Of a stretch of DNA of 33,592 nucleotides, positions 2 through 33,592 are shown piece by piece (the stretch's first letter is position 1; each line of letters starts with the position of its first letter). Origin of the DNA: a virus (taxonomy: Duplodnaviria > Caudoviricetes). The notes below the pieces were generated by a model that saw nothing but the letters and a program-made list of their open reading frames with translations, ran no database searches and was not told where the DNA came from. The position numbers and the translations under genes were made by a program. The stretch is from the IMG/VR virus record IMGVR_UViG_3300037310_000514, positions 1 through 33,592 of that record, one strand, 5' to 3'.

Positions 2-853
2 CCCGAGGGGTTCTTCTGGAGGGCGTTCCGGCCCCATTCGGGATTCAGGGTCTTTCACGTTCCCTGCCATGCGTCGTCCCGCGTGTCTCCCGCCTTCTTC
101 GACACGATGCGGCGGTCGTTCGGCGAGGGCAGCGAGCAGTGGCGGGTAAGAGTTCTGGGGGAGTTTCCCGGTACCGCTTCCGATTCGCTGATCGACGCCG
201 CCGCCGTCGATGCGGCGGTGAAGCGGGACGTCGTCGTTCCGCCTATCGGTGCGGTATGGGGGCTGGATGTGGCCCGCTTCGGGTCCGCGTCGTCGAGCCT
301 GTGCAAGCGGTTTCCGCGCGGCGTGATCGAGCCTCCCCGCGTCTGGAACGGGCTGAGCACGATGGATTTGTGCGGGCGGATTCTGAACGAGTGGTCGAAC
401 ACGCCGGAACGCGAGCGTCCGTCGGCGATTTTCGTCGATGCGATAGGGGTGGGCGGGGGCGTGGCCGACCGATTGTTCGAACTTGGGCTTCCGGCGGTGG
501 GGGTCAATGTCGGCGAGAGCCCGGCGTTCGCCGATCTGAACTGCCACCGGCTGCGGGACGAACTGTGGTTTTCGGCGGCGCGGTGGCTGGAGCGCGGCGA
601 CGTGAAGCTGCCCGGCGACGCCCGCCTGATCGAGGAACTGATCTGTGTACGGAAGAAATATTCGTCGGCCGGGAAGCTGATGGCCGAATCCAAGGCCGAT
701 CTGACGGCGCGGGGTCTTCCGTCGCCGGACGTGGCCGACGGTTTCTGCCTGACCTTCGCCTTTCAGCGGGTGGAGGCGGGTATCGCCGTTTCCGGGCGGT
801 GGGGCGCCAGCGATTGGACGAAGCCGCTGACCAGGGGCGGTTCGTACGTGTAG
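2..853 (+). CDS. terL: Terminase large subunit, C-terminal nuclease part (5'-truncated by window)
   Basis: Frame open from position 2 to TAG at 853. RNase H-like nuclease motifs WGLDVARFG, IFVDAIGVGGGVADRL and SPDVADGF; directly upstream of portal. Confidence 0.9.
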   Translation, partial: PEGFFWRAFRPHSGFRVFHVPCHASSRVSPAFFDTMRRSFGEGSEQWRVRVLGEFPGTASDSLIDAAAVDAAVKRDVVVPPIGAVWGLDVARFGSASSSLCKRFPRGVIEPPRVWNGLSTMDLCGRILNEWSNTPERERPSAIFVDAIGVGGGVADRLFELGLPAVGVNVGESPAFADLNCHRLRDELWFSAARWLERGDVKLPGDARLIEELICVRKKYSSAGKLMAESKADLTARGLPSPDVADGFCLTFAFQRVEAGIAVSGRWGASDWTKPLTRGGSYV

Positions 854-864
854 GCGGCCGTCGA

Positions 865-880
865 TGTTTCACGTGAAACA
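865..880. promoter_or_regulatory. parS: parS centromere-like site (ParB/Spo0J binding site), chromosomal consensus
   Basis: TGTTTCACGTGAAACA, an exact match to the widespread bacterial chromosomal parS consensus. The palindrome extends to 18 bp (864-881). Intergenic between terL and portal. Confidence 0.92.
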
Positions 881-890
881 TGGGAGCCCT

Positions 891-920
891 CTTGCCAACC
901 CGGCCGTTTTCGGTCTATCT
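891..920 (+). promoter_or_regulatory. Putative alphaproteobacterial sigma70-type promoter for the morphogenesis operon
   Basis: CTTGCC(891-896)-N18-CTATCT(915-920) resembles the rhizobial CTTGAC-N17-CTATAT consensus and lies 30 bp upstream of the portal ATG. Confidence 0.45.
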
Positions 921-950
921 CTTCCGCCCGTCCGTTTCAGGCTGCAGGCC

Positions 951-3161
951 ATGGCTCCGTTCGCCTTGAAGATCGTCGCGCCCGACCCCGAGAGCACCGC
1001 CGGTCTCTACGAGGTCGGCGAGAGCGCCGCCCCGCTCCGGCCGATGGACGAAACGGCCGTTCGCAACGCGCTTGCCGCCGCCATCGACGATGCCGTGAAC
1101 TTTGCCGAGAGCGAGCTGAGCGGGCCTCGGCGACGGGCCGACCGGTACTATCGCGGCGAAACCGACATTCCCTTCGAGCCCGGCCGCAGCCGGGTGGTCG
1201 TTTCCAAGGTCCGCGACGGCGTTCAGGCCGTTCTGCCTTCCCTGGCCCGTATCTTCACCCAGTCGGACACGATTGCGGAATTCGTTTCCGACGATGAGGA
1301 AGACGCGAAATTCGTTTCCGAGGCCACCGCGTTCTGCAACGGCGTTTTTCACAAGAACGGCGGCTACACGGCGCTCATCCAGGGCTGCACCGACGCCTTG
1401 AAGGCCCGTATCGGTACGATAAAGGTTTCGCTGGTGGAGGCGCCGGTTCCCCGGCATCTGGAGCTTGTCCCCGGAGAGCCGGTGCCGGATGGAACGGCGG
1501 TTACCGAAACCTCGGCCGAGACGGTGGTCGTCACCCAGTCCCCGATCCGCCGCATGTGGAAGCTGGAAGCCGTTCCGCCCGAGGAATTCATCGTCTCTCC
1601 CGACGCCTCCTGCGCCGCCGACGCCCGGCTTCTGGCGCATCGCCGGAACGTCCCGATCTACGAAGCCGTCGCCATGGGCTACCCCTACGAGCGGCTGAAG
1701 GACCTTTCCGCCGACGAAGACGGCATGGCGGACATCGAGGACATGGAACGGCGCGGGTATGCCCGTTCCGGCCGCGATGCGACCGTTCCCGGCGATCCGA
1801 CCGCGCGGCTCGTTCTGCTGACCGAGTGCTATTTCCGGATCGATGCCGACGGCGACGGCATCGCCGAGCTGCGGCGGATCGTGGCGGGCGGCGGCCGGTA
1901 TGAGATACTGTCCGACGAACCCGTCAACTACGCGCCTTACGCGGTCTTCCGGGACGATCTTCAGCCCCACGTCTTCCATCCCATCTGTCTGGCCGAAGAC
2001 CTGATCCAGGATCAGGACGTCCAGACCGCCCTTCTCCGGGCCATCGTGGACAACACGGCGCTGACCAATTCGCCGCGCACCGTCGCCAACGAGCAGATGG
2101 TCAATCTCGAAGACCTCAAGAACGGCCGGATCGGCGCCATCGTACGGGTCCGGGCCATGGGCCAGGTGGAAGAGCTCGCGACGCCGTTCGTGGCCGGTCA
2201 GACCCTTCCCGTCCTTCAGTACCTTCAGGACGTGAGCGAGCAGCGTTCCGGGATCACCAAACTGTCCCAGGGGCTCGACCCCGACAGTCTGCAGTCCACC
2301 GCCCGCATGGCCGTCAACGCGGCGATCAGCGCCAGCGACGCGCGTATCGAGATGCGCGCCCGGAATCTCGCCGAAACGGGTTTGAGCGAGCTGTTTCTGT
2401 GCATCCTGCGGACCGCCCGCGACCGGCTCCGGGGACCGATCCAGCTGAAGACCCCGACCGGCGGGTATACGTCCGTCAATCCGCAATGGTGGCACGATCT
2501 GGTCGGCGTTCGCGTCAACGTCGGTCTCGGCAGCGGCCGGATCGACGAAAAGAAGCAGGCCCTCGCCGGGATTCTCCCGATCCAGCGGGAGATTCTGCAG
2601 GCTCTCGGCCCGGCCAATCCTCTGTCTTCGTGGGAGAACGTGCGCGAGACGCTCAAGACCCTTCTGCGGCTCTCCGGGATTCACGATATCGGCAATTATT
2701 TCCCCAGCGTGCCGCCACAGGTCGTCGGGGAAATCGACCGGCAGATGAAACAGGCCGCCGCCGCCCAGCAGAGCGGCGGGGAGGGGGCTGCCGCCGCCGC
2801 CGCTCTGGTGAAGGCCGAAGAGATAAAGGCGCAGGCCAAAATCCAAGTGGACGGCGCCAGGCTGCAGTCCGAGCGGCAGATCGAGGCGGTCGAGATGCAG
2901 GCCGAACGGGAGAAGGCGCTTCTCGAAGCCCGGATGAAATACCTGTCCGAGGTTGCCGGGTTGCGGGCCGAAATCGCCGCGCTGAAAGCCAAGCTCGATC
3001 TGGAGCGGCAGAAGATGCTTCTGGAGGACGACCGCCTCCGCGACAAGCAGGCGCAGGACTTCGCCGCCGAAGCCGCCAGGGTCCAGATGGATGCGCAGAC
3101 GAAACGGGCCGTGGCGGCGGAGACGGCGAGAACGCGCGGAGGGGAGGAACGGACGCAATGA
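951..3161 (+). CDS. Portal protein (podovirus, P22/SU10-like family)
   Basis: Follows terL. Motifs RYYRGE...GRSRVVVSKVRD, VPPEEF and RIDADGDGIAELRRI; coiled-coil C-terminal barrel. The ORF-track start at 864 is the parS palindrome (MFHVKH); ATG 951 is more plausible. Confidence 0.88.
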   Translation: MAPFALKIVAPDPESTAGLYEVGESAAPLRPMDETAVRNALAAAIDDAVNFAESELSGPRRRADRYYRGETDIPFEPGRSRVVVSKVRDGVQAVLPSLARIFTQSDTIAEFVSDDEEDAKFVSEATAFCNGVFHKNGGYTALIQGCTDALKARIGTIKVSLVEAPVPRHLELVPGEPVPDGTAVTETSAETVVVTQSPIRRMWKLEAVPPEEFIVSPDASCAADARLLAHRRNVPIYEAVAMGYPYERLKDLSADEDGMADIEDMERRGYARSGRDATVPGDPTARLVLLTECYFRIDADGDGIAELRRIVAGGGRYEILSDEPVNYAPYAVFRDDLQPHVFHPICLAEDLIQDQDVQTALLRAIVDNTALTNSPRTVANEQMVNLEDLKNGRIGAIVRVRAMGQVEELATPFVAGQTLPVLQYLQDVSEQRSGITKLSQGLDPDSLQSTARMAVNAAISASDARIEMRARNLAETGLSELFLCILRTARDRLRGPIQLKTPTGGYTSVNPQWWHDLVGVRVNVGLGSGRIDEKKQALAGILPIQREILQALGPANPLSSWENVRETLKTLLRLSGIHDIGNYFPSVPPQVVGEIDRQMKQAAAAQQSGGEGAAAAAALVKAEEIKAQAKIQVDGARLQSERQIEAVEMQAEREKALLEARMKYLSEVAGLRAEIAALKAKLDLERQKMLLEDDRLRDKQAQDFAAEAARVQMDAQTKRAVAAETARTRGGEERTQ

Positions 3162-4448: not shown

Positions 4449-4616
4449 CGCAAACCTTGCAAGCGGGGTTTGCGCATCGGCCCGGCGGACGACAGCCGTC
4501 GAGTTAGCCCCGGTAAGGCCGATGTTCGCGACCGGCCATCCGACCTCCTTAGGGAGAGGATGTTGTTCGTCGGCTTGAACGGACGACCTCAACCCACGCT
4601 CCGGGAACGTTCCCGG
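4449..4616 (+). ncRNA. Putative structured RNA leader upstream of major capsid gene
   Basis: Consecutive stems, several with G-U pairs: 4449-4474; 4475-4482/4517-4524 enclosing 4483-4488/4496-4501; 4537-4562; 4562-4570/4579-4587; perfect 16-bp palindrome 4601-4616. Confidence 0.45.
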
Positions 4617-4633
4617 TATAAGGAGACACGACC

Positions 4634-5608
4634 ATGGCCGTAGCCGCCAACGCACTCGAAACCTACGACAGCAAGACCATCCGGGAAGACCTTCAGGAGG
4701 CGGAGAACATGATTTCTCCGACCGAAACCCCCTTCTACTCGATGATCGCCGGACGGATGAAGGCGACAAGTACGCTTCACGAATGGCCGTTATTGGAACT
4801 GGCCGCCGTCAATTCGTCCAACCGCGTGGCGGAAGGCGAAGACGCTCCCACCGTCTCCGCGCCGGATGTGGCGATGCGGCGTTCCAACTACACGCAGATC
4901 AGCTTCAAGAACGTCAAGGTGTCCTCGACCGCCCAGGCGGTGGACGGTGCAGCCGATATCGAGAAGCTGGCCAAGCAGGTTTCGTACAAGCTCAAGGAGC
5001 TCAAGCGCGACAAGGAGCAGATGCTTCTCGACAATACGGCGGCCGATCCGGGCGCCGCAGCCGGCGCGACGGTCAGGAAAGCGGCCGGACTCCCGGCGTT
5101 TCTCATCACCAACGCTTCCCGCGGTACCGGCGGTACCGCCCCCACTCTTTCGGGGACGACCAACGGGTATCCGAACGGGGCGGCGGGCGACGGAACGTTG
5201 CGGGACCTCACCGAGGACCTGCTCAATACGGTCATCCAATCGGTGTGGACGCAGGGCGGCGATCCCAGGTACTGTCTGGTGTCGCCGATCAACAAGAGGG
5301 TTATTTCCACAACTTTTAACGCCTACGCTACCAAATACAAGGATGCCGACGATAAGAAGCTCGTTACTTCCGTAAATGTCTATGAAAGCGATTTCGGCAC
5401 GGTGCAGATCGTTCCGAACCGCTTCCAGCGCGGCCGCGACGTTTTCGTCATCGACCCGGACTACGTGGATATCGCCGAGCTTCAGCCCACTAAGCAGGAG
5501 CCTCTGGCGAAGACGGGATTGACCGACAACCGGCTGATCTCGTGCGAGTACACGTTGCATGTGGGCAACGAAAAAGCGCAGGGTATCGTCGCCGACACGA
5601 ACGGCTGA
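4634..5608 (+). CDS. Major capsid protein (DUF5309/SU10-like HK97-fold family)
   Basis: Strong TAAGGAG SD. Motifs REDL..ISPTETPF, HEW, LKRDKE, YESDFGTVQIVPNRF, LAKTG; 324 aa, after scaffold. Confidence 0.92.
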   Translation: MAVAANALETYDSKTIREDLQEAENMISPTETPFYSMIAGRMKATSTLHEWPLLELAAVNSSNRVAEGEDAPTVSAPDVAMRRSNYTQISFKNVKVSSTAQAVDGAADIEKLAKQVSYKLKELKRDKEQMLLDNTAADPGAAAGATVRKAAGLPAFLITNASRGTGGTAPTLSGTTNGYPNGAAGDGTLRDLTEDLLNTVIQSVWTQGGDPRYCLVSPINKRVISTTFNAYATKYKDADDKKLVTSVNVYESDFGTVQIVPNRFQRGRDVFVIDPDYVDIAELQPTKQEPLAKTGLTDNRLISCEYTLHVGNEKAQGIVADTNG

Positions 5609-7408: not shown

Positions 7409-9994
7409 ATGGCCTGGCCCACGACATATCAAGGCTGGATAGACGCGGTCACCGACTGGCTGGATATCGCGACCCTGCCGTCGGTCGCCTTCGACACCTT
7501 CCTTTCCGCCGCGACCGCGCGCCTCAACCGGGAGCTCGATTCCCAGCACATGGAGAAGCGGGTCGCCGTCGTCTTCGACACGGCCGGTGCGGGAGGCCCC
7601 GTCAACCTTCCGCTCCTGATTCCGGATTTCAACCGCGTCAAGCTGGTGAACGTCGCGGGCTTCAAGTCTCTCGACGCCGTCACGATAGACGAAATGGTCG
7701 ATTTGCGGGCCGAAGGGACGACCGGCGACGCGTCGTTCTACTGCATCGACGCGAACGAGCTCTACATTTATCCGCAGCCTTCCGACGGCACGTCCGTCGA
7801 AATCCGCTACTACCAGCAGGTGCCGGACATTTCGACGGCGCTCAACGCCAACGTCTTCACGTCGAGGCATCCGGACCTTTTCCTCTATGCGGCGTTGACC
7901 GCAGCCGAGCTCTACGTTGTGGAAGACGAACGTCTCCCGGTCTGGCAGGCGCAATACCGGACGTTCCTGGACAGCGCGAACGTCAATGCCAAGCAGTCCA
8001 AGTACGGATCGACGCCGCTGGTCCGGGGGGTTTTTCCGAAAGCCGTTTCGACCGGCGGAGGCGGCGGCGGAGGCGGCGTCTCCGTGGCCGGATTCTACTA
8101 CGCCGTCGTGGACGTGTCCGGCGCGGGGGACTACACGCTCGTTCCCGGCAACGTCACGGCTTTCAGGCTGATCGGGACTCTGACCGGCAACCGCGTCGTT
8201 CTGGTGCCTCCGGCAGCGCGGCAGTTCTGGTTCGACAACCGGACCGTCGGACCGTACACCCTGCACATCGACACCTCGACCGGCAGCGCGAACAAGGTCC
8301 TTGTCAATCAGGGCAAGGCCGCCATCACGTATACCGACGGGGCCGTTGCGGTCCTGGCCGAAACCGACGATCTCATCGGCACTCTTTCCTTCCTGGTCGG
8401 CGACCGCGGAGACGTTCTGGTGGACGCCACCGGGCTCGACTGGTCGCGGGAACGCACCGGCAGCGCCAAGGGAGACGGCGTCTCCGACGATACGGCCGCC
8501 CTCCAATCGGTCCTCGATTCGGGCCGTACCGTCGTTCTGGGCTCGGGGAAGAGCTATTTCATCAAGTCCCGGCTCGTCATCTCCGCCGACGGCACCGGGA
8601 TCGTCGGCGACGGCTCTCCGCTCATCGTCATGGGTTCGGACGTCGGAGAGTTCGACAACATCGACAGTTCCGCCGCCGCCCGCTACGGGGCGAACGGCGT
8701 GGGCGTCTACGCGTCCGGCATCGCCCGGCCGACGGTCAAGGGCGTCCGCATCAGGTACGAAACGCAGGTGGACGACCGCTACGTCCGGGCGCTGGCTTTC
8801 GAGGACTGCACCGACATAACGGTCGAGAACGTCGAAGCGTGGAATTTCACCAAGGGTTTCGGCATTCTCGCTTTCAACGACTGCATCCGCGGTTCGGTGT
8901 CGTTCAACCACGTCCACTCCTGCACCACCGACAGCATTACGACCGGCCAGATCACCGGCATCGGTTTCGATTACGATGCGCAGGTGGGCTGCTCCGGCAT
9001 CGCGGCGATAGGCAACCGGATTCACGACATTACGGTCGGCCCGAATTTTCTCTCGCTTTACGGCTACCAGACCGACGGCATCAATCTGGCCGGGGGTTCC
9101 GGCAAGAAAACGGCGTTCATGCAGGTGGCGAACAACTGGATATCCAATGTCGGCGAAGGCATCGACACGTTCGGCGACGACAGCACGATCGTCGGCAACA
9201 CCGTCGATAAGTGCTACATCTACGGCCTCAAGTTCGTCCACGGCGCCAGCCGCAACGCCGTCCACGGCAACGTCGTGACGCATATCGGGTTCGGCGGCAT
9301 CGTGCTCGCGGGGACGTCGATCCACACTCAGGACACCGCCGACAATCTGATTTTCGGGAACGTGATCCGGTCGATCAATCCCGACGGCGCATGGGCGGCG
9401 AGCTCGACCTTCGGCGTGGGATTCTTCTCCAACGGCGGCACGGCCTATCTGGCCCGCCGCAACAAGATATGGAACAACCACATCGACGGCGGCGGAACCG
9501 GAGCCAACGGGGTTCGCGTCGATGCCAACAGCGGCGACGCGAACTCGCTCAACTCGCTGCGCGGCAACCACATTCTCAACGTTACGACGAACGAATACCT
9601 TCTCAACGACGCGGACACGATTTCCGATCTCGTGAAATACGCCTCGCCTCTCCAGAACGAAGCGACCGCCAACCTCGCAACCGGCTTCACCGAAACGGCT
9701 CTCGACCTCGGAACCGTTACCGGCGGCACGGTCGTGCCGGACGCCTCCGCCCGGCAGATGCAATATTACGTCAACAACGGCGCCCATACTCTGGCGCCGC
9801 CGACCGGGAGTCCCGGCAACGGCGCTTCCGTCGTGGTGGACGTGGTCAACGGCATCTCCGCCGGAACCGTCTCCACCGGAGGCTTCGACAAGGTGACGGG
9901 CGACGCTTTCGCCGTTCTGAACGGAAACGCCTACCGGTGCTACATCAACGTAATCGGCACCCGCTCCCACCTCCATGTGGTGGCGCTGCAATGA
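7409..9994 (+). CDS. Head-tail adaptor (tail tubular A-like) fused to fibre and beta-helix tailspike/depolymerase domains
   Basis: aa 1-~208 adaptor-like (TTYQGWIDAVTDWLD, ARLNREL, IYPQPS, YYQQVP, HPDLFLYAAL). Then a Gly8 linker, a fibre domain, the pectate-lyase-3-type AKGDGVSDDTAALQ motif, Asn-ladder beta-helix repeats and a C-terminal fibre-tip domain ending HLHVVALQ. Confidence 0.82.
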   Translation: MAWPTTYQGWIDAVTDWLDIATLPSVAFDTFLSAATARLNRELDSQHMEKRVAVVFDTAGAGGPVNLPLLIPDFNRVKLVNVAGFKSLDAVTIDEMVDLRAEGTTGDASFYCIDANELYIYPQPSDGTSVEIRYYQQVPDISTALNANVFTSRHPDLFLYAALTAAELYVVEDERLPVWQAQYRTFLDSANVNAKQSKYGSTPLVRGVFPKAVSTGGGGGGGGVSVAGFYYAVVDVSGAGDYTLVPGNVTAFRLIGTLTGNRVVLVPPAARQFWFDNRTVGPYTLHIDTSTGSANKVLVNQGKAAITYTDGAVAVLAETDDLIGTLSFLVGDRGDVLVDATGLDWSRERTGSAKGDGVSDDTAALQSVLDSGRTVVLGSGKSYFIKSRLVISADGTGIVGDGSPLIVMGSDVGEFDNIDSSAAARYGANGVGVYASGIARPTVKGVRIRYETQVDDRYVRALAFEDCTDITVENVEAWNFTKGFGILAFNDCIRGSVSFNHVHSCTTDSITTGQITGIGFDYDAQVGCSGIAAIGNRIHDITVGPNFLSLYGYQTDGINLAGGSGKKTAFMQVANNWISNVGEGIDTFGDDSTIVGNTVDKCYIYGLKFVHGASRNAVHGNVVTHIGFGGIVLAGTSIHTQDTADNLIFGNVIRSINPDGAWAASSTFGVGFFSNGGTAYLARRNKIWNNHIDGGGTGANGVRVDANSGDANSLNSLRGNHILNVTTNEYLLNDADTISDLVKYASPLQNEATANLATGFTETALDLGTVTGGTVVPDASARQMQYYVNNGAHTLAPPTGSPGNGASVVVDVVNGISAGTVSTGGFDKVTGDAFAVLNGNAYRCYINVIGTRSHLHVVALQ

Positions 9995-24995: not shown

Positions 24996-25474
24996 CGCGT
25001 TTTCCGCTCGTACAGCCACAGCGCGATCAGCGCCGCCTCGGCCGAACCGTGATCCTTCCTGCGCGAGAATCCGTCCGCGCGGGACGGCCACACCCGCATG
25101 GCGAGCAGTCTGCTTTCGTCCTTGTTCTTGCCGAGCTTCATGTCTTTCTTCCAGACTGCCGGAGGCACTCTGACGACGGGAATCCCCAATCCCGCCAAAA
25201 TGCCGCAGACCGTACCGTAGGCCATGCCGAAAGTGAAAGTCGATGCGACGCCTTGCCGCGGCATGGCCGACGCCTCTTCGACGGCCGCCGTATCGACGAA
25301 CGGAGCGAGCTCCGAAAGCTTCCGGGCCAGCAGAACCTCGGCGACGACCGTCCGTTTGCGGGACTTGTCCACGTTCACGGACGGAACGGGAAAAACCTCG
25401 ATGAGTTCTCCCCGCGTATCGAGCAGAGCGAAAGCCCCGGAAACGCCGGGATCGACACCGAGAATCGCACCCAT
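24992..25474 (-). CDS. ruvC: RuvC-like Holliday junction resolvase
   Basis: ILGVDPG, VEE...MP.QGVASTFTFG..YG, P..WKK, D...EAALIA. Confidence 0.88.
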   Translation of the reverse strand: MGAILGVDPGVSGAFALLDTRGELIEVFPVPSVNVDKSRKRTVVAEVLLARKLSELAPFVDTAAVEEASAMPRQGVASTFTFGMAYGTVCGILAGLGIPVVRVPPAVWKKDMKLGKNKDESRLLAMRVWPSRADGFSRRKDHGSAEAALIALWLYERKTR

Positions 25475-25499
25475 CGAAACCGTTCCTTTTGCGCGGACG

Positions 25500-26000
25500 T
25501 CAGAACCGCAGACGTATCGTCCGTTTCGGGTCCACGGAGAGCTTCCTGTGCGCCGGGCAATAGCTTTCGCCGAACCGGGTGGTCCGGCCGCAGAACCGAT
25601 GCCCGGCGGGCGGAGCGCGATGGGAGGTCGTCGCGAAGCGGCACTGGCGGACGCCCAGATCCAAGATGCCGAATCTTCCGGGCGGAAGCGCAGGCTTCGG
25701 CGGAGACGCGGGCGCAGGCGCAGGCTTCGGCAGGAGAAGCTTTGAAAAGCCGGGTTCCGCGACCTTCGGCGCGATCTTCGGCGCGGAAGGTTTCAGCACC
25801 CGCTTTCGGGGCTTCCTGAGCTCCATCCTCCGTCTTTCGGCCGGAGCCGCGCCGTACGTCATTCCCTCCCGCGACCGGTTCGCCACGCCGATGACGGCGT
25901 TCCGCGTCGTCCCGGTTTCGTCGGCGATCTGGGAGGCGGAGAAACCCTCGCTCCACAGAACGAGAATCCTCCGGTTGCGCTCGGACAGATCGGGGCGCAT
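25500..26000 (-). CDS. gcrA: GcrA cell-cycle regulator homologue
   Basis: N-terminal LWSEGFSASQIA..GTTRNAVIG..NR (GcrA HTH), Pro/Lys linker, C-terminal ILDL...QCRF....FCG......YCPAH. Confidence 0.9.
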   Translation of the reverse strand: MRPDLSERNRRILVLWSEGFSASQIADETGTTRNAVIGVANRSREGMTYGAAPAERRRMELRKPRKRVLKPSAPKIAPKVAEPGFSKLLLPKPAPAPASPPKPALPPGRFGILDLGVRQCRFATTSHRAPPAGHRFCGRTTRFGESYCPAHRKLSVDPKRTIRLRF

Positions 26001-26300
26001 CTACGGCCTGCGATCCCGGTCGGCTGTTTCCGGCGCTTTCGGAAGCTCGGAAGGCTCGAATTCCGGACCGATCAGGCTTGCGACCCGAAAATGGACGTCC
26101 CGGAAATGCCGTTCCAGCGCGACATTCAGCCCTTCCAGAGCCTCGCTGAGCAGCCGGAAAGCGTCCGTCGCCGACCGGTAATCGTCGGCCGTCTGCGCCG
26201 CCAGATCGACGGCGGCATTGCGCACGTCCATAAGCGCTCCGCCCAGCGCGTCGATACCGGTCGGATAGGCGTCGTTCTTCATCGGTTCGTTCCCTTCCAT
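26001..26300 (-). CDS. Hypothetical protein (alternative start 26282)
   Basis: Clean ORF tightly packed between neighbours; helical composition. Confidence 0.6.
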   Translation of the reverse strand: MEGNEPMKNDAYPTGIDALGGALMDVRNAAVDLAAQTADDYRSATDAFRLLSEALEGLNVALERHFRDVHFRVASLIGPEFEPSELPKAPETADRDRRP

Positions 26301-26301
26301 T

Positions 26302-26649
26302 TCAGGTTTCGCCGTTCTTCGTCAAGGCGCGGATCGCAGGTCCGGCAAGGCCGTGTCCGCCGCGGATCGAGTGCAGATCGATCATGATGGCCAGAGACGC
26401 CATGGCGTGAGCGAGATGCGGAAGACCGCTTTCCGGGTCGATGAGCTCTCCGTCCCGCCACGCCAGCAAATGCCGCAGACAGGCGTCGTAGTAGGTCGGC
26501 GGCCGCGCATCGCTCTCCCGCCAGTTCAGCGGCCCGTACTTGCGGGCGCCGTGGCGCAGGACTTCACCCAGCAGAACGAGAGCCACGGGCGGAACGGCGA
26601 ACACGCCGGGCTTGCGGTCGCCGGAAGCACGTTTGGGGTCGTCGGTCAT
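26302..26649 (-). CDS. dATP/dGTP diphosphohydrolase N-terminal domain-like (DUF5664) protein
   Basis: ATG 26649 with GGAGG SD; KP....VPP.AL.....GARKYG..NWR...YY.A..RHL.AW..GE..DPESGLPHLAHA. Confidence 0.88.
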   Translation of the reverse strand: MTDDPKRASGDRKPGVFAVPPVALVLLGEVLRHGARKYGPLNWRESDARPPTYYDACLRHLLAWRDGELIDPESGLPHLAHAMASLAIMIDLHSIRGGHGLAGPAIRALTKNGET

Positions 26650-26680
26650 CGCCGGTTTTCCTCCATGCACAGCGCCCGCG

Positions 26681-26708
26681 AGGATATGCGGTCCGCCGCG
26701 GAACGCAA
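26681..26708 (-). promoter_or_regulatory. Putative leftward sigma70-type promoter
   Basis: Minus strand TTGCGT-N16-TATCCT, about 30 bp upstream of the leftward operon start. Confidence 0.5.
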
Positions 26709-26712
26709 GAGG

Positions 26713-26731
26713 CTGCGGCATAACGCCGCAG
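26713..26731. promoter_or_regulatory. Palindromic operator candidate between divergent promoters
   Basis: CTGCGGC-ATAAC-GCCGCAG, 4-5 bp from each -35 element. Confidence 0.5.
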
Positions 26732-26736
26732 GCGTC

Positions 26737-26765
26737 TTGACAGGCGCCCGCGGGATGTGCAGCTT
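26737..26765 (+). promoter_or_regulatory. Putative rightward sigma70-type promoter
   Basis: Perfect TTGACA, N17, then CAGCTT (-11A and -7T kept), upstream of the SSB gene. Confidence 0.5.
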
Positions 26766-26827
26766 CCCGCCCGCACGCGAACCCGCAAACCCGCGATTCC
26801 GCGAAATACGCAAAACAGGAGAACCCC

Positions 26828-27424
26828 ATGCCCGCCGTCGCATCCGCCCCCGCCCGCAAGTTCGCCGTCACGCCGCCCGGCATCCTGAGCTACCCGGCAT
26901 TGTTCACGCCGCGCGCCCCGATGCCCGGCTCGACGCAGACCGACCCGCGGTTTCAGGCCAGCCTCATTCTGTCCCCGGAAACGTTCAAGACGCCCTCGTT
27001 CAGAGAGCTTGTCGCGCTCATCGAATCCGCCGCGCGGGAAAAGTTCGGCGCGAAAATCGCGATGAACGCCCTGCGGCTCCCGCTGCGCAAGTGCGCGGAG
27101 AAGGAGAGCATGGCGGCCGTCGATCCGAACGGCGCGTTCTTCGCCTGCTGGAGCAAGACCCGGCCGCAGGTGATCGGCCCGGATTTCGCTCCCATCGCCG
27201 ATCCGGCCGCCGTGTGGGCCGGACAGACCGTCCGGCTGTCGGTCCAGCCGTTCGCCTACGAGCAGAGCGGAAACCGGGGCGTCTCCCTAGGGCTCCGGAA
27301 CGTCCAGATCCTGCGCACCGACGGCCCCCGGCTGGACGGACGCGCCAGCGCCGAAGCGGATTTCGAGAACGTCCCGCTGCCCGAGGGCTTCGCGGCGGCG
27401 AACATGGACGATCTGCCGTTCTGA
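26828..27424 (+). CDS. Single-stranded DNA-binding protein, DUF2815 (T7 gp2.5-like)
   Basis: AGGAG SD; LSYPALFTP, P.R, AY...GNRGVSLGL.NVQ....G..L.G..A..DF, acidic DDLPF C-terminus. Confidence 0.92.
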   Translation: MPAVASAPARKFAVTPPGILSYPALFTPRAPMPGSTQTDPRFQASLILSPETFKTPSFRELVALIESAAREKFGAKIAMNALRLPLRKCAEKESMAAVDPNGAFFACWSKTRPQVIGPDFAPIADPAAVWAGQTVRLSVQPFAYEQSGNRGVSLGLRNVQILRTDGPRLDGRASAEADFENVPLPEGFAAANMDDLPF

Positions 27425-27446
27425 CGGACCGGCCCCCGCACGACGG

Positions 27447-27480
27447 CGGCCCGTGCGCGGTTCCCGCGCACGGGCCGTTT
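27447..27480 (+). terminator. Strong hairpin, likely intrinsic terminator or attenuator between ssb and polymerase
   Basis: Perfect 14-bp stem CGGCCCGTGCGCGG-TTC-CCGCGCACGGGCCG followed by TTT. Confidence 0.6.
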
Positions 27481-27500
27481 CCGCAGAAGGACCGGCCCCC

Positions 27501-29540
27501 ATGTACAAGATCGTCATCGATTTCGAAACCCGCTCGGCCGTCGATCTGAAACGCGCAGGCGTCTACCGCTACGCCGAAGACCCCTCGACCGAAATCCTGT
27601 GCCTCGGCTGGGGCGGCAACGACCTGAGCCTCGCCCGCAAGCAATTCGCGATCCCCGGACCGGTTTCGGCATGGATTCCGTCGCGCGGCGGAGAATTCCC
27701 GCAGGCGATCATCGACCACATGGGCCGGAGCGGCCGCTTCGCCGCCCACCATTCGATCTTCGAGCTGGAGATATGGAACCGGGTCCTGCGCCGGGACCGC
27801 CCGGAAATCCCCAGGCTCGAACCGAGACACATCCTCGGCCACGACACTATGCTGCGATGCGCGATCTGGGGTCTGCCCCAGTCCCTCGACGCAGCTGCGG
27901 AGGCGCTCGGATGCAAAGAGCGCAAGGACCCGAACGGGCGGGCGCTCCTGGCGAAACTGTGCAGGCCCAAAGCGCGGGACGGAACCGCACCGGCCTTCCA
28001 CGATCCGTCTCCGGCCGAGCTCGACGCGCTCGCCGCCTACTGCGCCCAGGACGTGCGCGTCGAACAGGAGCTCGACGCGCTCCTGCCGCTGCCCTTCCTG
28101 ACCGTCATGGACGAAGCCCTGACCGCGGAACGCATGAACCGGGAGGGGCTGCTCATCGACGGCCTCAGGCTGAAGCGGCTCCGGGACATGATGGAGGCGA
28201 CGGTCCCGATGCTGGACGCGCGGATGCGCGAAATCACCGGCGGCAAGGTCGGATCGGCCAGGGCCGTGACGGCGCTCCTGGCGTGGCTCAGAAGCGAAGG
28301 CGTCGAGGGCCTCGAAAGCGTGGCGCGGAAGGACCTGGAAGAGGCGCTGGAAGGGCTCGCGGAAGACGGAGGGGGCTCGCCGAGAGCGCGGGAGGCGATA
28401 GCGACGCGCCTCGCCGCCGCCAGGAGCTCCGTCGGCAAACTGGCGGCTTTCGACGCCATGGCCGGAATGTGGGACGGCCGGATACGGGGGGCGTTCACGT
28501 TCTACGGCGCCGGAAGAACCGGACGGTACGCGGGCTCCGGGGTGCAGCTGCAGAACCTGCCGCGGCCCTCGGAGAGCGGCGAGGCCCTGGAAAGGCGGCT
28601 GAAGCGCATCGAAGACGGCCGGGAACCGCCGACGCTGGAAGCGGTATCGAACGCGCTCAGGTCGCTGATAATCCCCCGGCCCGGCTGGGATGCGGCTGTC
28701 ATCGACCTGAGCCAGATCGAGGCGCGGGTTCTGGCCTGGCTGGCAGGCCAGGACGACCTGCTCGGCGCGTTCAGGCGCGGCGAAGACGTCTACACCTACG
28801 ACGCGAAAGGCGTGGGAAGCGACAACCGGCAGCTGGGAAAAACGCTCAGGCTGGGCCTCGGCTACGGCATGGGTGCGGCGAAATTCATGGAGACGGCGGC
28901 GAGCCGCGGCGTCGCGCTGCACCCGGAGGAAAGCGCCGCCATCGTCGCCGCATGGCGCCGGAACAATAAGGCCATCGTGGACTGGTGGTGGAAACTGGAA
29001 GCCGGATTCCGCCGCAGCACCGAAAACCCCGGAGCCTGGGGGCCTTGGGACCCGCGCCTGCCGAAGGTCCGGTTCGGAACGTTCCATCGCCCCGACGGAT
29101 CGGGCAGGGAGGTCGCGACGCTCTACGTCCAGCTGCCGTCCATGCGGTGGATCGCCTACCGCGACCCGCTCTCGCGGCGGGACGAAAACCCGAGCTATCT
29201 CGGCGTGAACCCGGTCACCCGGAAATGGGAGCGGATCCCCACTTGGGGCGGCAAGCTCGCCGAGAATATCGTGCAGGCGGTGGCCCGGGACGTGCTCTGC
29301 GTCCTCATGACCCTGATCCGAAAATACGACGCAGACGTAAGAGCGATCCTGTGCGGATGCGTCCACGACGAAGTGATCGTCGAAACTCATCCAACGATTT
29401 CAAAGACTTTCCTGGCGGACATGACAGCCGTACTAAGGGAAGGCAGTATCCGGAAACACAGCAGGATGAAGCTTCCGGAATGGATGGCCGGACTTCCACT
29501 CGACGCAAGCGGAAGGATTTGCGACCGGTATGGAAAGTAA
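27501..29540 (+). CDS. polA: DNA polymerase, family A (APSE-like), with 3'-5' exonuclease domain
   Basis: ExoI IDFETRS, ExoIII YCAQDV, TGRYAG..VQLQNLPR, motif A DLSQIEAR, motif B RQLGKTLRLGLGYG, motif C VHDE. ATG 27501 chosen over the ORF-track start. Confidence 0.93.
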   Translation: MYKIVIDFETRSAVDLKRAGVYRYAEDPSTEILCLGWGGNDLSLARKQFAIPGPVSAWIPSRGGEFPQAIIDHMGRSGRFAAHHSIFELEIWNRVLRRDRPEIPRLEPRHILGHDTMLRCAIWGLPQSLDAAAEALGCKERKDPNGRALLAKLCRPKARDGTAPAFHDPSPAELDALAAYCAQDVRVEQELDALLPLPFLTVMDEALTAERMNREGLLIDGLRLKRLRDMMEATVPMLDARMREITGGKVGSARAVTALLAWLRSEGVEGLESVARKDLEEALEGLAEDGGGSPRAREAIATRLAAARSSVGKLAAFDAMAGMWDGRIRGAFTFYGAGRTGRYAGSGVQLQNLPRPSESGEALERRLKRIEDGREPPTLEAVSNALRSLIIPRPGWDAAVIDLSQIEARVLAWLAGQDDLLGAFRRGEDVYTYDAKGVGSDNRQLGKTLRLGLGYGMGAAKFMETAASRGVALHPEESAAIVAAWRRNNKAIVDWWWKLEAGFRRSTENPGAWGPWDPRLPKVRFGTFHRPDGSGREVATLYVQLPSMRWIAYRDPLSRRDENPSYLGVNPVTRKWERIPTWGGKLAENIVQAVARDVLCVLMTLIRKYDADVRAILCGCVHDEVIVETHPTISKTFLADMTAVLREGSIRKHSRMKLPEWMAGLPLDASGRICDRYGK

Positions 29541-29595
29541 AGCGGCGATTCTACGGGTAGCGAGTCCGGCGGAAACGTCCACCACCGGTAGCGGC

Positions 29596-29624
29596 TTGAC
29601 AAAAAGGAAAACGGCGGCGAAGCT
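29596..29624 (+). promoter_or_regulatory. Putative sigma70-type promoter for primase gene
   Basis: TTGACA-N17-GAAGCT; two GANTC sites just upstream (29547, 29562). Confidence 0.45.
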
Positions 29625-29723
29625 GAAACTCCGCCGCCGCCCAGCGAGCATCCTCAAACGGCCGCAGAACAGTCAACAGGGAAGCCGACAGGAAAACCAC
29701 GGCTGAACGAAAGGCACTCTCGC

Positions 29724-32018
29724 ATGTCCACGTCTACCCCATTCCCACCGGCTCTGCAACCCCTTTCCGAAGCCGCCCTGCACTACGCCCGCAGAGGCAT
29801 ACCGGTCTTCCCCTGCGAACCGGGAGGCAAGAGGCCCCTCACCGCCCACGGGTTCAAGGACGCCTCCGCAGACCCGGAAACGGTCAAAGCATGGTGGCGG
29901 TCGTACCCGAACGCCAGCATCGGGATGCCGACGGGAGAAGCTTCCGGCATCGAAATCGTGGATATCGACGTCAAGCGCGGCGAAAATGGCCTGAAGGCGC
30001 TGATCTCGGCCCTCGGCCGCGGCGGAACGTCCATCCCGGAACTCGAAACCTGCGCCGCCTGCTCAACCCCCTCGGGCGGTACGCATTTCTGGCTGAAATG
30101 GGACGGAAGCGAACGGAGAAGGTCGAGAGCGAACGTACTCCCGGGCGTGGACCTGCGCAGCGCCGGAGGCTACGCCATCGTCCCGCCATCCCCCGGATAC
30201 ATAGGAAATTCCCTATCGGCCGGGACCTGGACGGAAAGCCTCAAACGGATCTTCCGTTCCTGCCGCTCCGGTCCCGGCGCTTCCGGCCTACCGGCGTCCA
30301 CACCCCCCGAATTCGCACTCCCTCCGGACCGCCTGCGCGAACTGCTCGAAACCCTGCCGCCGGAACGGGTCGAAAGCTACACGCCCTGGATCGAAACCGG
30401 AATGGCCGTCCACCACGCCACGGGGGGAAGCGAAACGGGCCTGGAAATCTGGGACGCATGGTCGCAAGGATCGGTCTTCGGCAAGTACCCCGGCCCAAAC
30501 GTCCTGCGGGACAAATGGCTGAGCTTCGGAAGGGAAAGAGGAAATGCCCAGCCGGTCACCTTGAGGTCGCTGACGAAAGCCGGACTCTCGGCCGCCGACG
30601 GAGGTACGCTGGGGGAGGCAAAGCACGCGGAGCTCCTGGCGGCGCTGAAAACCCAGCTGGCCGCCGAGGACTTCCGGAACGCAGGCCCGCCATCCCCCTC
30701 CTTCCGGAAAGGGAACGGCGAAGCGGCGGCCTATCCATCGCCATCGCCACCGGCAGCGGCCACGGGGCTCGAAGCGGGCGTCTCTTCAGGCTGGACCGAA
30801 GACGCCGCAAAGATACCCGGCAGGGACTGGCTCGATCCGAGAAAGCTCTGGCTCAGAGGCGAAACCGCAGCCCTCGCCGGACGCGCAGGCGTCTCCAAGA
30901 GCACCCTCATGCTCGGCCTTGTCTGCGACTGGATCGCCGCCCAAGCGGCGGAGAAGAAAAAGGGAACGGCCGTCTGGCTCTCCGCCGACGACGATCTCTT
31001 AACGGCCAGGCGGCGCGTCGCAGCCTGGCGCCTCCACCGCGGCAGCACCGGCGAAGAGCTCGAAGGCCGCCTGCACGTCCTTACCCTCGAACACGGGCTC
31101 GGAGGCCTGAACCTGAGCTCGGAAGCGGGGCTGGACCGGCTGGCGCGCGAGGTGGCGGCACGGCAGGCGGACCTCCTGGTCGTGGACCCGCTGGCCAATC
31201 TCTCGGGACTCACGGACGAAAACTCCAACGCCCAGATGGCCCGGCTCGGAATGGGCCTCAAGGCCCTGGCCCTGAAATGCGCCTGCGCCGTCGTCCTCCT
31301 GCACCACGTCCGCAAAGGCGCCGCCGGGAACGGAGGCGCACCGCCGGCCACCGGCGGGACCGGCGGAAGGGCCGGAGTGAAAAGCGCCGCCGTGAGCGAT
31401 GAGGACATGAGAGGCGCATCGGCGCTGATCGGCACGGTCCGGAGCGTCCGGACGCTCCGCGACGCCACCCCGGAAGAAGCCGAAACGCTCGGCGGGCCGG
31501 GAGCGGGAGCGGACGCCTGGCGCTGGAAGGTCCTGGAGCACGCCAAGGCGAACTACAGCGGGATGGAAGACACCCGCTATTTCCGCATCGAAACGCCCAC
31601 CGTCGGCGCGGGCGGCGAAAGCGAACCGGTCCTCTCCGAAACCGCCGGTATCGCGATCAAAGGCGCATCGGCCCCCGTCACCGCCACCGAGGTCCAGACG
31701 CTCCTGAACGCGGTGGCTTCGTACATCGCCGACAACGGCGGAACGCTGGCGGGAGAATTCCACCAGGCGGGATCGAGATACATCGGACGGATCGCCGAAA
31801 CGTGCCTGAGAGGCCGGGACGCGGCCGGACGCCGGAAGATCGCCGAGGCGTGCCTCGACAGCCGCCTCCTGGTCCGGGAGGCGTTCACGACGGCCGGACG
31901 GCACACGAGAGAAGGACTGCGCCCGGCGCCCGGCGCCATCTCGCCCAGCAGCGGCACTCCCTCACCGGCAGTGCTCGAACGCTTTCCACCCGCCACCGCC
32001 GCCGGGGACCCAGAATGA
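29724..32018 (+). CDS. Primase-helicase: Prim-Pol (bifunctional primase/polymerase) + PriCT-2-like + AAA_25/RepA-like helicase
   Basis: PVFPC..GGKRPL..HGFKDAS, IGMPTG, VDIDVK, TPSGGTHFW; W...GMAVH...W..WS; Walker A GRAGVSKS, Walker B LLVVDPL, LLHHVRK, RGASAL. Confidence 0.92.
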   Translation: MSTSTPFPPALQPLSEAALHYARRGIPVFPCEPGGKRPLTAHGFKDASADPETVKAWWRSYPNASIGMPTGEASGIEIVDIDVKRGENGLKALISALGRGGTSIPELETCAACSTPSGGTHFWLKWDGSERRRSRANVLPGVDLRSAGGYAIVPPSPGYIGNSLSAGTWTESLKRIFRSCRSGPGASGLPASTPPEFALPPDRLRELLETLPPERVESYTPWIETGMAVHHATGGSETGLEIWDAWSQGSVFGKYPGPNVLRDKWLSFGRERGNAQPVTLRSLTKAGLSAADGGTLGEAKHAELLAALKTQLAAEDFRNAGPPSPSFRKGNGEAAAYPSPSPPAAATGLEAGVSSGWTEDAAKIPGRDWLDPRKLWLRGETAALAGRAGVSKSTLMLGLVCDWIAAQAAEKKKGTAVWLSADDDLLTARRRVAAWRLHRGSTGEELEGRLHVLTLEHGLGGLNLSSEAGLDRLAREVAARQADLLVVDPLANLSGLTDENSNAQMARLGMGLKALALKCACAVVLLHHVRKGAAGNGGAPPATGGTGGRAGVKSAAVSDEDMRGASALIGTVRSVRTLRDATPEEAETLGGPGAGADAWRWKVLEHAKANYSGMEDTRYFRIETPTVGAGGESEPVLSETAGIAIKGASAPVTATEVQTLLNAVASYIADNGGTLAGEFHQAGSRYIGRIAETCLRGRDAAGRRKIAEACLDSRLLVREAFTTAGRHTREGLRPAPGAISPSSGTPSPAVLERFPPATAAGDPE

Positions 32019-32037
32019 CGATGGGGAAGAAAAGAAC

Positions 32038-32208
32038 TGCGCCACAAGGTCTTGTGGCGCAAACCCTTGCGTCGCAAGCAGCGCAAGCGATGGGAGGGGA
32101 GCGGAGCGGCGAACAGCCGTCCCTGTCTGCGCCGCAAGCTGCGTCGCAAGGGTGCCCTACTTCATGGGCGCCTTGCGGCGCAGCGGCGCAGGGACGGCTG
32201 TTCGCTGC
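32038..32208. repeat. Iteron-like direct/inverted repeats and long hairpin; putative replication origin
   Basis: TGCGYCRCAAG forward at 32038, 32068, 32128, 32140 and inverted at 32051, 32172. 20-bp arms 32106-32125/32189-32208. Non-coding, directly after the primase-helicase. Confidence 0.7.
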
Positions 32209-32302
32209 CCGCGTGGGGAACTTGAGAGTGGGCGGAAAAGGTTGCGCCGCTGCCCGCGCCGGTGCATGAGGCAGAATGGCGCGGGAAGGCGCCGGAAGAG
32301 AC

Positions 32303-32325
32303 AAGAGAAGAGAAGAGAAGAGAAG
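32303..32325 (+). repeat. (AAGAG)4.6 microsatellite running into the Shine-Dalgarno
   Basis: AAGAG AAGAG AAGAG AAGAG AAG then GAG, about 10 nt before ATG 32335. Confidence 0.85.
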
Positions 32326-32334
32326 GAGACTGGA

Positions 32335-32886
32335 ATGGACGAACATCGGAAGACGAAGAAAAGCCGTCCGGCGAACGGCGGCTCCGGCAGACCGCCGCGG
32401 CTCCGCACGGCGGCGAAAAACGGGTACACCGAAGCCTACGTGGAAAAGCAGATCGAGTTCTGGGACGGCTGCGGATACGGTCTGAGGTTCAGCTACCGCC
32501 TTGCTTTCTGGACTCCGGAAGGCGGGCTGCATCCGGTCCTCCCGCCCTCCCGCGAACTGGCCGCCCGGCCCTGCCACGCGCGGGTCGGACTCCACCTGGC
32601 GGAACGCTGGGCCGAACGGCGGCCGGGGCCGGACGGAGACGACGCCAGCTGGACCACCCCGGCACGGCTCGCGGCGGCGTGGGGCACCGGGACCGGCGGA
32701 GGGCTGAGAGGCGCCGTCGAGTTCCTGCGCGGCCTCGGCTGGCCGATAGAGACCGGCTATCGCACGCTCGCCGGAACGTGGACAGCCGAGCGTCCGGCGC
32801 GCGGCGCGTGGGAGCCCCACCAGAAGAATGTCGGCTACAGGCTCACGGAGCCGGTCGAGTTCGAACGGACCGGCGGCCGCTGGTAG
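32335..32886 (+). CDS. Putative winged-HTH DNA-binding protein, paralogue 1
   Basis: AAGGAG SD; SWTTPARLAAAWG...LRGAVEFLRGLGWPIETG...GYRL resembles HTH_11-type wHTH; clearly paralogous to the next gene. Confidence 0.65.
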   Translation: MDEHRKTKKSRPANGGSGRPPRLRTAAKNGYTEAYVEKQIEFWDGCGYGLRFSYRLAFWTPEGGLHPVLPPSRELAARPCHARVGLHLAERWAERRPGPDGDDASWTTPARLAAAWGTGTGGGLRGAVEFLRGLGWPIETGYRTLAGTWTAERPARGAWEPHQKNVGYRLTEPVEFERTGGRW

Positions 32887-32939
32887 CCGGTTCCGGTTCC
32901 GCCCGGTGCGGGAAGGCATGGAAAAGAGGGAGAACGAAA

Positions 32940-33506
32940 ATGGATGTAGAACCGGCGTTGAAAGCAAGCCGTCCGGCAAACGGCGGTCGCGGTGGAAGGC
33001 GCTTTCGGCCTTCCCCGGTCCTGCCGCACAGGCTCGACGACACGGCCGCGGCAAGAGAGCTCGCGTACTGGCTCGAAGCCGACTGGGCGTTTCACTTCCG
33101 GTTCCGGATACCGGCGGAAGGATGCGAAGAGCCGGGGAGGCGCCAGCCCTGGCGGTACATGGTGGCCCGGCCCTGCCACGCACTGGTCGGGCTGTACCTG
33201 GCGGAGCGGTGGGCCGAGCGGCAGCTGGCGCCGGCTGCCGGTGCAGCCGGGGACGGCGGCGCAAGCTGGGCTACCCCGAAGCGGCTCGTGGCGGCTTGGG
33301 GCATCGGAAGCGGCAGGGGGCTGTACGGCGCCGTCTGCTTTCTCTCGACGCTCGGCTGGCCGATAGAGACCGGCTACTGCACGCCCGGCGGGGTGTGGAC
33401 GACCGAGCGGCCTAAAGGGTTTAAAGGAAAGCAGCTGTCCGAAGAGGTCGGGTACAGGCTCGCCGGTCCGGTCGAGTTTGAGAAAGCCGGAGGTCCCTGG
33501 TACTGA
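32940..33506 (+). CDS. Putative winged-HTH DNA-binding protein, paralogue 2
   Basis: GAGGGAG SD; shares SRPANGG, ARPCHA.VGL.LAERWAER, SW.TP.RL.AAWG, LGWPIETGY and VGYRL..PVEFE..GG.W with 32335-32886. Confidence 0.65.
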   Translation: MDVEPALKASRPANGGRGGRRFRPSPVLPHRLDDTAAARELAYWLEADWAFHFRFRIPAEGCEEPGRRQPWRYMVARPCHALVGLYLAERWAERQLAPAAGAAGDGGASWATPKRLVAAWGIGSGRGLYGAVCFLSTLGWPIETGYCTPGGVWTTERPKGFKGKQLSEEVGYRLAGPVEFEKAGGPWY

Positions 33507-33592
33507 TTCTCCCCTCTTGAAAGCCCTAGGAAGCCCACATAGCGGCGTCGGCCGGTCCGGGGGGGGGTACTCCCATACGACCGGCCCACGCC

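What the first reader, a model, noticed from the sequence alone, without database searches (positions are those of the whole stretch)
864..881. Perfect host-chromosome parS centromere in a phage genome with no visible ParAB
Seen: the intergenic palindrome TGTTTCACGTGAAACA (18 bp with flanks) sits between terL and portal. It is an AT-rich exact 16-mer in GC-rich DNA; chance of a given 16-mer in 33.6 kb is about 1e-5 at uniform composition. No parA/parB gene is seen in the window. Known: this is the chromosomal parS consensus bound by ParB/Spo0J, including in Caulobacter-type alphaproteobacteria, where ParB-parS is pole-anchored and recruits MipZ and SMC. Bacillus phage phi29 uses host Spo0J-parS to enter the forespore. 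Inference: this phage loads host ParB to segregate or pole-target its DNA, or titrates ParB/MipZ to disturb host division. I know of no description of this for an alphaproteobacterial podovirus, but could not search.
Basis: partly seen in the sequence, partly recalled or inferred. Interest (0 to 1): 0.92.

Follow-up and report, generated by a model that had tools for sequence, protein, structure and literature searches.

The report
Host centromere site in alphaproteobacterial podophage
An uncultured freshwater phage, probably of an alphaproteobacterium, carries one exact copy of the bacterial chromosome's centromere sequence (parS) between two packaging genes and no partition gene in the part of its genome we hold, so it likely loads its host's ParB protein, a trick found in print only for Bacillus phage phi29.

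Summary
The site is real. TGTTTCACGTGAAACA lies at 865-880 in a 97-bp non-coding spacer between terL and the portal gene, whose likely start is 951. Contigs from two runs span it unchanged. The window encodes GcrA but no ParA, ParB or integrase; about 5.7 kb is missing.

Chance is unlikely: about 5,700 IMG/VR stretches hold exact parS, against 39 for a centre-swapped control. The exact 16-mer is the consensus that Caulobacter ParB binds.

The site is not conserved: 0 of 40 related virus records carry a perfect copy. In 25 of 38 close relatives terL abuts the portal gene, so this spacer looks like a lineage-specific insertion. One relative has a near-consensus site just before its likely terS.

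Best reading: host ParB loads here during lytic growth, and replicated phage DNA competes with the chromosome's centromere. Binding is likely; the function is untested.

Host-type parS is common in phages, and this scan noted it before on other DNA (78 findings). In 10 paper searches I found it described only for phi29 and Nf. Cultured Ruegeria phage RpAliso (three sites, no ParB hit) makes the alphaproteobacterial case testable.

The parts
865..880 (.). Exact chromosomal-type parS consensus (16 bp; 18-bp palindrome at 864-881)
   Evidence: It equals the consensus parS in PMC7383237, and 863-882 matches 19 of 20 bases of the duplex co-crystallised with Caulobacter ParB.
854..950 (+). 97-bp non-coding spacer between terL and portal, a likely lineage-specific insertion
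   Evidence: 25 of 38 scored close relatives have a gap of 10 bp or less; 13 of 38 have longer gaps largely filled by small ORFs; codon use is non-coding-like.
891..920 (+). Possible alphaproteobacterial sigma70-type late promoter, CTTGCC-N18-CTATCT (inferred)
   Evidence: Only match in the window to a pattern I wrote after seeing it (post hoc). The consensus is recalled. The E. coli-type scan found 0 promoters in 700-1100.
2..853 (+). Terminase large subunit, C-terminal part (cut by the window start)
   Evidence: phrog_2, E 4e-14
951..3161 (+). SU10-type portal protein, 736 aa
   Evidence: PF23899, E 2e-139; database gene call of 736 aa; start supported
4634..5608 (+). SU10-type major capsid protein
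   Evidence: PF17236, E 4e-82
25500..26000 (-). GcrA-like cell-cycle regulator; marker of an alphaproteobacterial host
   Evidence: PF07750, E 1.3e-16; Atlas neighbours are mostly viral GcrA clusters
26828..32018 (+). Own replication genes: SSB, family A DNA polymerase, primase-polymerase/helicase
32332..33506 (+). Two paralogous small proteins, possibly helix-turn-helix; the only unexplained candidates in the window for a phage-encoded reader of the site
   Evidence: 41-47% identical to each other; no Pfam hit; weak HTH_36 lead in the Atlas

Best explanation
The phage carries an exact host-type parS between terL and portal, and the host's ParB likely loads there during lytic infection, so that replicated phage genomes would compete with the chromosome's centromere for ParB and ParA and would stall host segregation and division. 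Shown: the site, its spacer position, no par genes in the 33.6 kb held, and strong enrichment of parS in phages. From literature: Caulobacter ParB binds this sequence, spreads about 2 kb from one site, and extra-chromosomal parS copies are toxic. Inferred: the host class, binding in this host (about 0.8), and the benefit to the phage (an undivided cell, with phage DNA positioned by ParA).
For: (1) Exact consensus: all 17 ParB proteins tested preferred this parS over NBS, and Caulobacter ParB was co-crystallised on a duplex matching 19 of 20 bases of 863-882 (PMC7383237 passages). (2) About 5,700 IMG/VR stretches hold the exact site (estimate from 2 of 64 parts) against 39 for the centre-swapped palindrome. 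Viral parS lies in an ORF of 150 aa or more in 21 of 61 loci against 31 of 35 control loci (p 2e-7; loci under 2,500 bp dropped; loci are not independent). (3) No ParB_N, HTH_ParB or AAA_31 match in the window. (4) Plasmid-borne strong parS reduces Caulobacter viability about 1000-fold, attributed to plasmid segregating instead of chromosome (PMC5815017 passages); that cost would not matter to a lytic phage. (5) Alphaproteobacterial parallels: relative G007 has TGTTCCACGTGAAACG in the gap just before its likely terS, near a GapR-like gene; Ruegeria phage RpAliso has 1 perfect and 2 one-mismatch sites and no ParB_N hit. (6) The phage also encodes GcrA, which fits cell-cycle interference.
Against: No perfect site in any relative examined: 0 of 139 portal-pattern loci, 0 of 40 whole records, 0 of 78 capsid loci. 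None of the 5 GcrA-bearing relatives among 25 tested has one. Of the 4 near-matches, 3 lie in or overlap ORFs. There is only one site, and PMC5815017 notes that single-parS chromosomes segregate poorly. About 5.7 kb is unseen, and 9 of 25 relatives have an integrase match, so a purely lytic life is not shown. The host is unknown, and no binding or phenotype data exist.
Confidence: 0.45

Rival explanations
1. Host ParB binds the site but acts as a transcriptional timer: its spreading would occlude a late promoter in the spacer and delay the head-gene operon until genome copies outnumber ParB.
For: A promoter-like sequence begins 11 bp after the site (post hoc pattern). G007's near-parS ends 8 bp before the ATG of its likely terS. 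Among viral parS loci I did not class as phi29-like, 11 of 54 have a terminase gene within 1.5 kb against 1 of 39 controls (p 0.012). ParB spreads about 2 kb from one site (PMC5815017).
Against: The promoter is unverified and the E. coli-type scan found none. With portal genes included the association weakens to 16 of 54 against 5 of 39 (p 0.08). Several loci in both sets are related. RpAliso's sites lie within 9 kb of the genome end; the two in the region I read lie among small hypothetical genes.
Confidence: 0.2
2. The site partitions a quiescent, non-integrated phage genome to daughter cells or to the pole through host ParABS (carrier state), as the first reader proposed and as phi29 does for spores.
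For: Precedent: phi29 has five parS sites and uses Spo0J for segregation into the prespore (PMC2731898 passages). No integrase match in the window. No provirus of the close clade among 120 GTDB pattern hits; the single portal hit is a stand-alone 42,943-bp contig.
Against: Plasmid-borne strong parS is toxic in Caulobacter. Only 33 of 72,556 plasmid records matched a 30-mer around the site against 439 of 50,697 phage records (queries offset by 2 bp and effective score thresholds differ, so indicative only). There is one site only. No repressor or plasmid-type replicon was identified in the window.
Confidence: 0.15
3. The site is read by a phage protein: a ParB in the missing 5.7 kb, or the two HTH-like paralogs at 32332-33506.
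For: The record is 85% complete. 2 of 40 relatives have a ParB_N match. The paralogs have a weak HTH lead.
Against: Those two ParB_N proteins are fusions to a DPPW-motif methyltransferase (family label recalled). G017, with the strong ParB_N hit, has no parS-like site; G007, with the weak hit, does have one. None of the 11 relatives at 90% or more complete has ParB_N. An unrelated regulator is unlikely to need the exact host consensus.
Confidence: 0.1
4. The site is a neutral by-product: chance, or a scrap of host origin-region DNA with no benefit to the phage.
For: It is absent from relatives, and the junction takes up foreign DNA easily (13 of 38 relatives have inserts).
Against: The control rate implies under 1% of viral perfect sites are chance (39 against about 5,700). 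Outside the palindrome the spacer had no extended match in the fetched loci, and matches among GenBank phages centre on the palindrome. A run whose contig differs from the window at 9 positions elsewhere keeps the site intact. Host chromosomes were not searched with the spacer.
Confidence: 0.1

Closest known systems
Host-type parS sites of Bacillus phages phi29 and Nf, read by host Spo0J (PMC2731898, passages read; the primary study it cites was not read)
   Same: A phage carries the chromosomal parS and relies on the host ParB-family protein.
   Different: phi29 has five sites and uses them for entrapment in spores. Here there is one site, in an SU10-type podovirus of a probably alphaproteobacterial, presumably non-sporulating host, at the terL-portal junction, so the purpose must differ.
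Caulobacter chromosomal ParABS centromere (PMC5815017, PMC7383237, bioRxiv 2021.03.08.434431; passages read)
   Same: Identical 16-bp consensus. A single strong site nucleates ParB and about 2 kb of spreading.
   Different: The chromosome has a cluster of sites near ori with its own parA and parB. The phage has one site and no par genes in the part held.
Phage- and plasmid-encoded ParABS systems such as P1, N15 and RedRock-like mycobacteriophages (recalled, not from a call)
   Same: A centromere-like site on extrachromosomal DNA.
   Different: Those encode their own ParA and ParB and use their own site sequences. No ParA or ParB was found here.
Ruegeria phage RpAliso (OR257569.1), cultured on R. 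pomeroyi DSS-3
   Same: Alphaproteobacterial phage with host-type parS (1 perfect, 2 with one terminal mismatch) and no ParB_N hit.
   Different: 149-kb genome, three sites within 9 kb of the right end. The sites are not annotated in the region read, and no function is reported there.

Membership tests
Chromosomal-type parS site | Match to the 16-bp palindromic consensus | tested here: met
   16 of 16; consensus as given in PMC7383237
Chromosomal-type parS site | Bound by a chromosomal ParB, with CTP-dependent spreading | not testable with these tools
   Literature shows binding of the identical 16-mer by Caulobacter ParB; the real host is unknown
Host-ParB-borrowing phage (phi29 type) | Site is part of the phage genome, not chimeric host DNA | tested here: met
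   Contigs of two runs span terL-site-portal with 0 differences
Host-ParB-borrowing phage (phi29 type) | No cognate ParB in the complete genome | tested here: inconclusive
   None in 33.6 kb; about 5.7 kb unseen; attempt to reach it failed
Host-ParB-borrowing phage (phi29 type) | Several sites, kept among relatives | tested here: not met
   One site; 0 of 40 related records have a perfect site, 4 of 40 have one at up to 2 mismatches
Host-ParB-borrowing phage (phi29 type) | Sporulating host and spore entrapment | tested here: not met
   GcrA points to an alphaproteobacterial host; the host is inferred, not identified
Self-encoded phage or plasmid ParABS | parA and parB genes next to the site | tested here: not met
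   Neighbours are terL and portal; no AAA_31, ParB_N or HTH_ParB match in the window
SU10-type podovirus head module | SU10 portal, major capsid and adaptor proteins | tested here: met
   PF23899, PF17236, PF24175

The most novel reading that the evidence does not exclude
Phages of alphaproteobacteria use a bare host parS as a protein-free weapon against the host cell cycle. Each replicated genome captures ParB, and with it MipZ and ParA, which blocks chromosome segregation, CtrA activation and division; the phage's GcrA rewires the same cycle. Such sites are gained independently near packaging genes and genome ends across unrelated phages.
Probability: 0.25. Interest if true: 0.75.

Novelty: new variant of a known kind. 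Interest (0 to 1): 0.5.

Why it matters
Borrowing of host ParB by a phage appeared in my searches only for phi29-like phages, where it serves spore entrapment. The counts here (about 5,700 viral stretches against 39 controls; 439 GenBank phage records) say the site is widely selected, including in phages of hosts that do not sporulate, so its usual purpose is an open question. In Caulobacter-type cells ParB-parS is tied to division through MipZ and to CtrA activation through chromosome translocation, so a phage-borne site could be a DNA-only way to halt the host cell cycle. This window is a weak single example: one site, not conserved, uncultured and incomplete. It does point to a cultured test case, RpAliso on Ruegeria pomeroyi.

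Tried and rejected
Portal as a single-protein query in viral contigs: no relative confirmed.

Terminase fragment in metagenome contigs, to reach close relatives or the missing 5.7 kb: only 3 distant loci at 29-34% identity. The missing part stays unread; one run contig extends about 1,760 bases past the window start but its letters are not returned.

GTDB scan for proviruses and a host: 1 of 120 pattern hits was a portal, on a stand-alone 42,943-bp contig with no parS at up to 2 mismatches. No host was assigned.

GcrA against GenBank phages: no match.

CtrA boxes (recalled pattern): none in the window.

Portal start at 864 with parS in the first six codons: considered and disfavoured. The ribosome-binding-site check in that call did not favour 951 (-3.8 against -8.2 kcal/mol for 864), so 864 is not fully excluded.

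Chimera with host origin DNA: rejected.

Near-parS enrichment in relatives: 3 sites at up to 2 mismatches in 1.38 Mb against a mean of 0.38 for 60 shuffled palindromes, 1 of which reached 3. Weak.

No RNA holder listed.

Paper searches gave no description of host parS on phages beyond phi29 and Nf. The library lacks most subscription journals, and I read no supplements.

Full report
Observation. TGTTTCACGTGAAACA lies at 865-880, extends to an 18-bp palindrome (864-881), and is the only match in the window at up to 3 mismatches. Markov models expect 1-3 x 10^-6 copies. One contig in each of two sequencing runs spans it with no differences, so it is not a chimera; both runs may be sources of this DNA. 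One run differs from the window at 9 positions in 25,000-33,551 yet keeps the site.

Anatomy. The window is an IMG/VR-type virus record, 85% complete. It encodes the end of terL (2-853), SU10-type portal, capsid and adaptor proteins, tail and lysis genes, a GcrA homolog, an SNF2 helicase, an exonuclease, SSB, a family A polymerase and a primase-polymerase. GcrA points to an alphaproteobacterial host; this is inferred. Six-frame searches found no ParB_N, HTH_ParB, AAA_31 or tyrosine integrase. The same portal protein is on record on a 39,346-bp contig, so about 5.7 kb between the window end and the start of terL is unseen. I could not reach it.

Is the site intergenic? An ATG at 864 is in frame with the portal gene. 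Codon use over 864-950 is non-coding-like (4 of 212 coding windows score as low; GC3 0.62 against 0.93 after 951), and that start would push a conserved motif past its position in all 108 of 120 portal proteins that have it. The ribosome-binding-site check favoured 864, so the case is not closed, but 951 is the likelier start. The site then sits in a 97-bp spacer. A promoter-like CTTGCC-N18-CTATCT follows at 891-920; I wrote that pattern after seeing it, the consensus is recalled, and the E. coli-type scan found no promoter.

Relatives. No perfect parS was found in 139 portal-pattern loci (137 with a portal hit, 64 of them at 42-56% identity, some duplicated), in 40 whole records (chosen because their contigs were longer than the loci held) or in 78 capsid loci. 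Four of the 40 have a site at up to 2 mismatches, against 0 for the reversed control. Three of these lie in or overlap ORFs. The fourth, G007's TGTTCCACGTGAAACG, lies in the gap just before a likely terS gene, near a GapR-like gene. Among 43 distinct close relatives, 38 could be scored: in 25 the terL stop is within 10 bp of the portal start, and in 13 the gap is longer and largely filled by small ORFs. The junction therefore takes up inserts, and the parS spacer looks like a lineage-specific gain. Of 25 relatives tested, 5 have GcrA and none of these has a perfect site; 9 have an integrase match, so the family includes temperate members. Two of 40 have ParB_N domains fused to a methyltransferase-like domain (label recalled).

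Background in phages. About 5,700 IMG/VR stretches hold the exact site (estimated from 2 of 64 parts) against 39 for the same palindrome with its central CG swapped. Viral parS avoids long ORFs (21 of 61 against 31 of 35 control loci). I scanned the two longest ORFs around 75 of the 139 parS loci; 59 had too little DNA, one was short, three were overlapping duplicates, and one had no ORF of 100 aa. I classed 21 as phi29-like from their PHROG families (label recalled). Of the other 54, 11 have a terminase gene within 1.5 kb against 1 of 39 controls (p 0.012); with portal genes the contrast falls to 16 of 54 against 5 of 39 (p 0.08). The loci are not independent, so this is a lead. No listed PHROG hit for those 143 ORFs was named ParA or ParB. 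Among GenBank phages, 439 of 50,697 records match the 30-mer around the site, mostly phages of Listeria, Clostridium, Microbacterium, Bacillus, Arthrobacter and Gordonia. One of the 40 rows shown is alphaproteobacterial: Ruegeria phage RpAliso, with one perfect and two one-mismatch sites within 9 kb of its right end and no ParB_N hit.

Literature (passages only; no supplements read). PMC2731898: phi29 has five parS sites and uses Spo0J for segregation into the prespore. PMC7383237: this 16-mer is the consensus, all 17 ParB proteins tested preferred it to NBS, and Caulobacter ParB was crystallised on a duplex matching 19 of 20 bases of 863-882. PMC5815017: Caulobacter ParB spreads about 2 kb from one site, and a plasmid-borne strong site lowers viability about 1000-fold. 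bioRxiv 2021.03.08.434431: MipZ binds ParB-parS, and chromosome translocation is needed for CtrA activation. Ten searches found no account of host parS on phages beyond phi29 and Nf; most subscription journals are outside the library. This scan's earlier notes list 78 findings in at least 71 genomes for my first word query and none holding all words of two queries naming alphaproteobacteria. They are unchecked and are not counted as support.

Mechanism. Host ParB very likely can load at this site (about 0.8). What the phage gains is untested. I favour lytic-phase capture (0.45): each genome copy carries a strong site, would compete with the chromosomal centromere, and would stall segregation and division while ParA positions the phage DNA. 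The toxicity that makes parS costly for a stable episome in Caulobacter would cost a lytic phage nothing. Rivals are timing of late transcription by ParB spreading (0.2), carrier-state partition (0.15), a phage-encoded reader (0.1) and neutrality (0.1).

Verdict. It works like the phi29 parS sites but fails two features of that case (several conserved sites; sporulating host), so I class it as a new variant of a known kind. Interest is 0.5: the general phenomenon is strong and testable in RpAliso, but this example is a single unconserved site in an incomplete, uncultured genome.

Noticed in passing
window 7409-9994 (+): The SU10 head-tail adaptor domain (residues 5-197) is in one 861-aa ORF with a beta-helix, pectate-lyase-like region; five relatives match only its first 206-208 residues. 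It may be an adaptor-tailspike fusion.
   Followed up: no
window 25500-26000 (-): Phage-encoded GcrA homolog; 5 of 25 relatives tested also carry one.
   Followed up: partly
window 32332-33506 (+): Two tandem paralogous genes (41-47% identical) with a weak helix-turn-helix lead and no Pfam family.
   Followed up: partly
window 29027-29064: One run's contig has 8 substitutions within 38 bp of the polymerase gene and only one other difference in 8.5 kb; possibly a recombination patch.
   Followed up: no
whole window: GANTC (CcrM site, recalled) occurs 59 times against about 86 expected from shorter words.
   Followed up: no
window 4601-4616 and 31440-31459: Other perfect palindromes: 16 bp just upstream of the capsid gene, and 20 bp inside the primase-polymerase gene.
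   Followed up: no
L283 1821-2864 and 499-1824; L284 319-1401 and 1456-2598: Two relatives share a two-gene block: a roughly 350-aa ORF followed by a ParB_N domain fused to a DPPW-motif methyltransferase-like domain.
   Followed up: partly
GenBank phages; L009, L039: 21 records named Microviridae, and two IMG/VR loci with replication-initiator and virion-protein hits, match parS. Host parS on small ssDNA phages is unexplained.
   Followed up: no
L579 (OR257569.1 140695-148102): Ruegeria phage RpAliso carries three host-type parS sites near its right genome end and has no ParB_N hit.
   Followed up: partly
terL-portal junction of relatives: 13 of 38 scored relatives have small, varied ORFs inserted here, so the junction looks like a hot spot for accessory genes.
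   Followed up: partly
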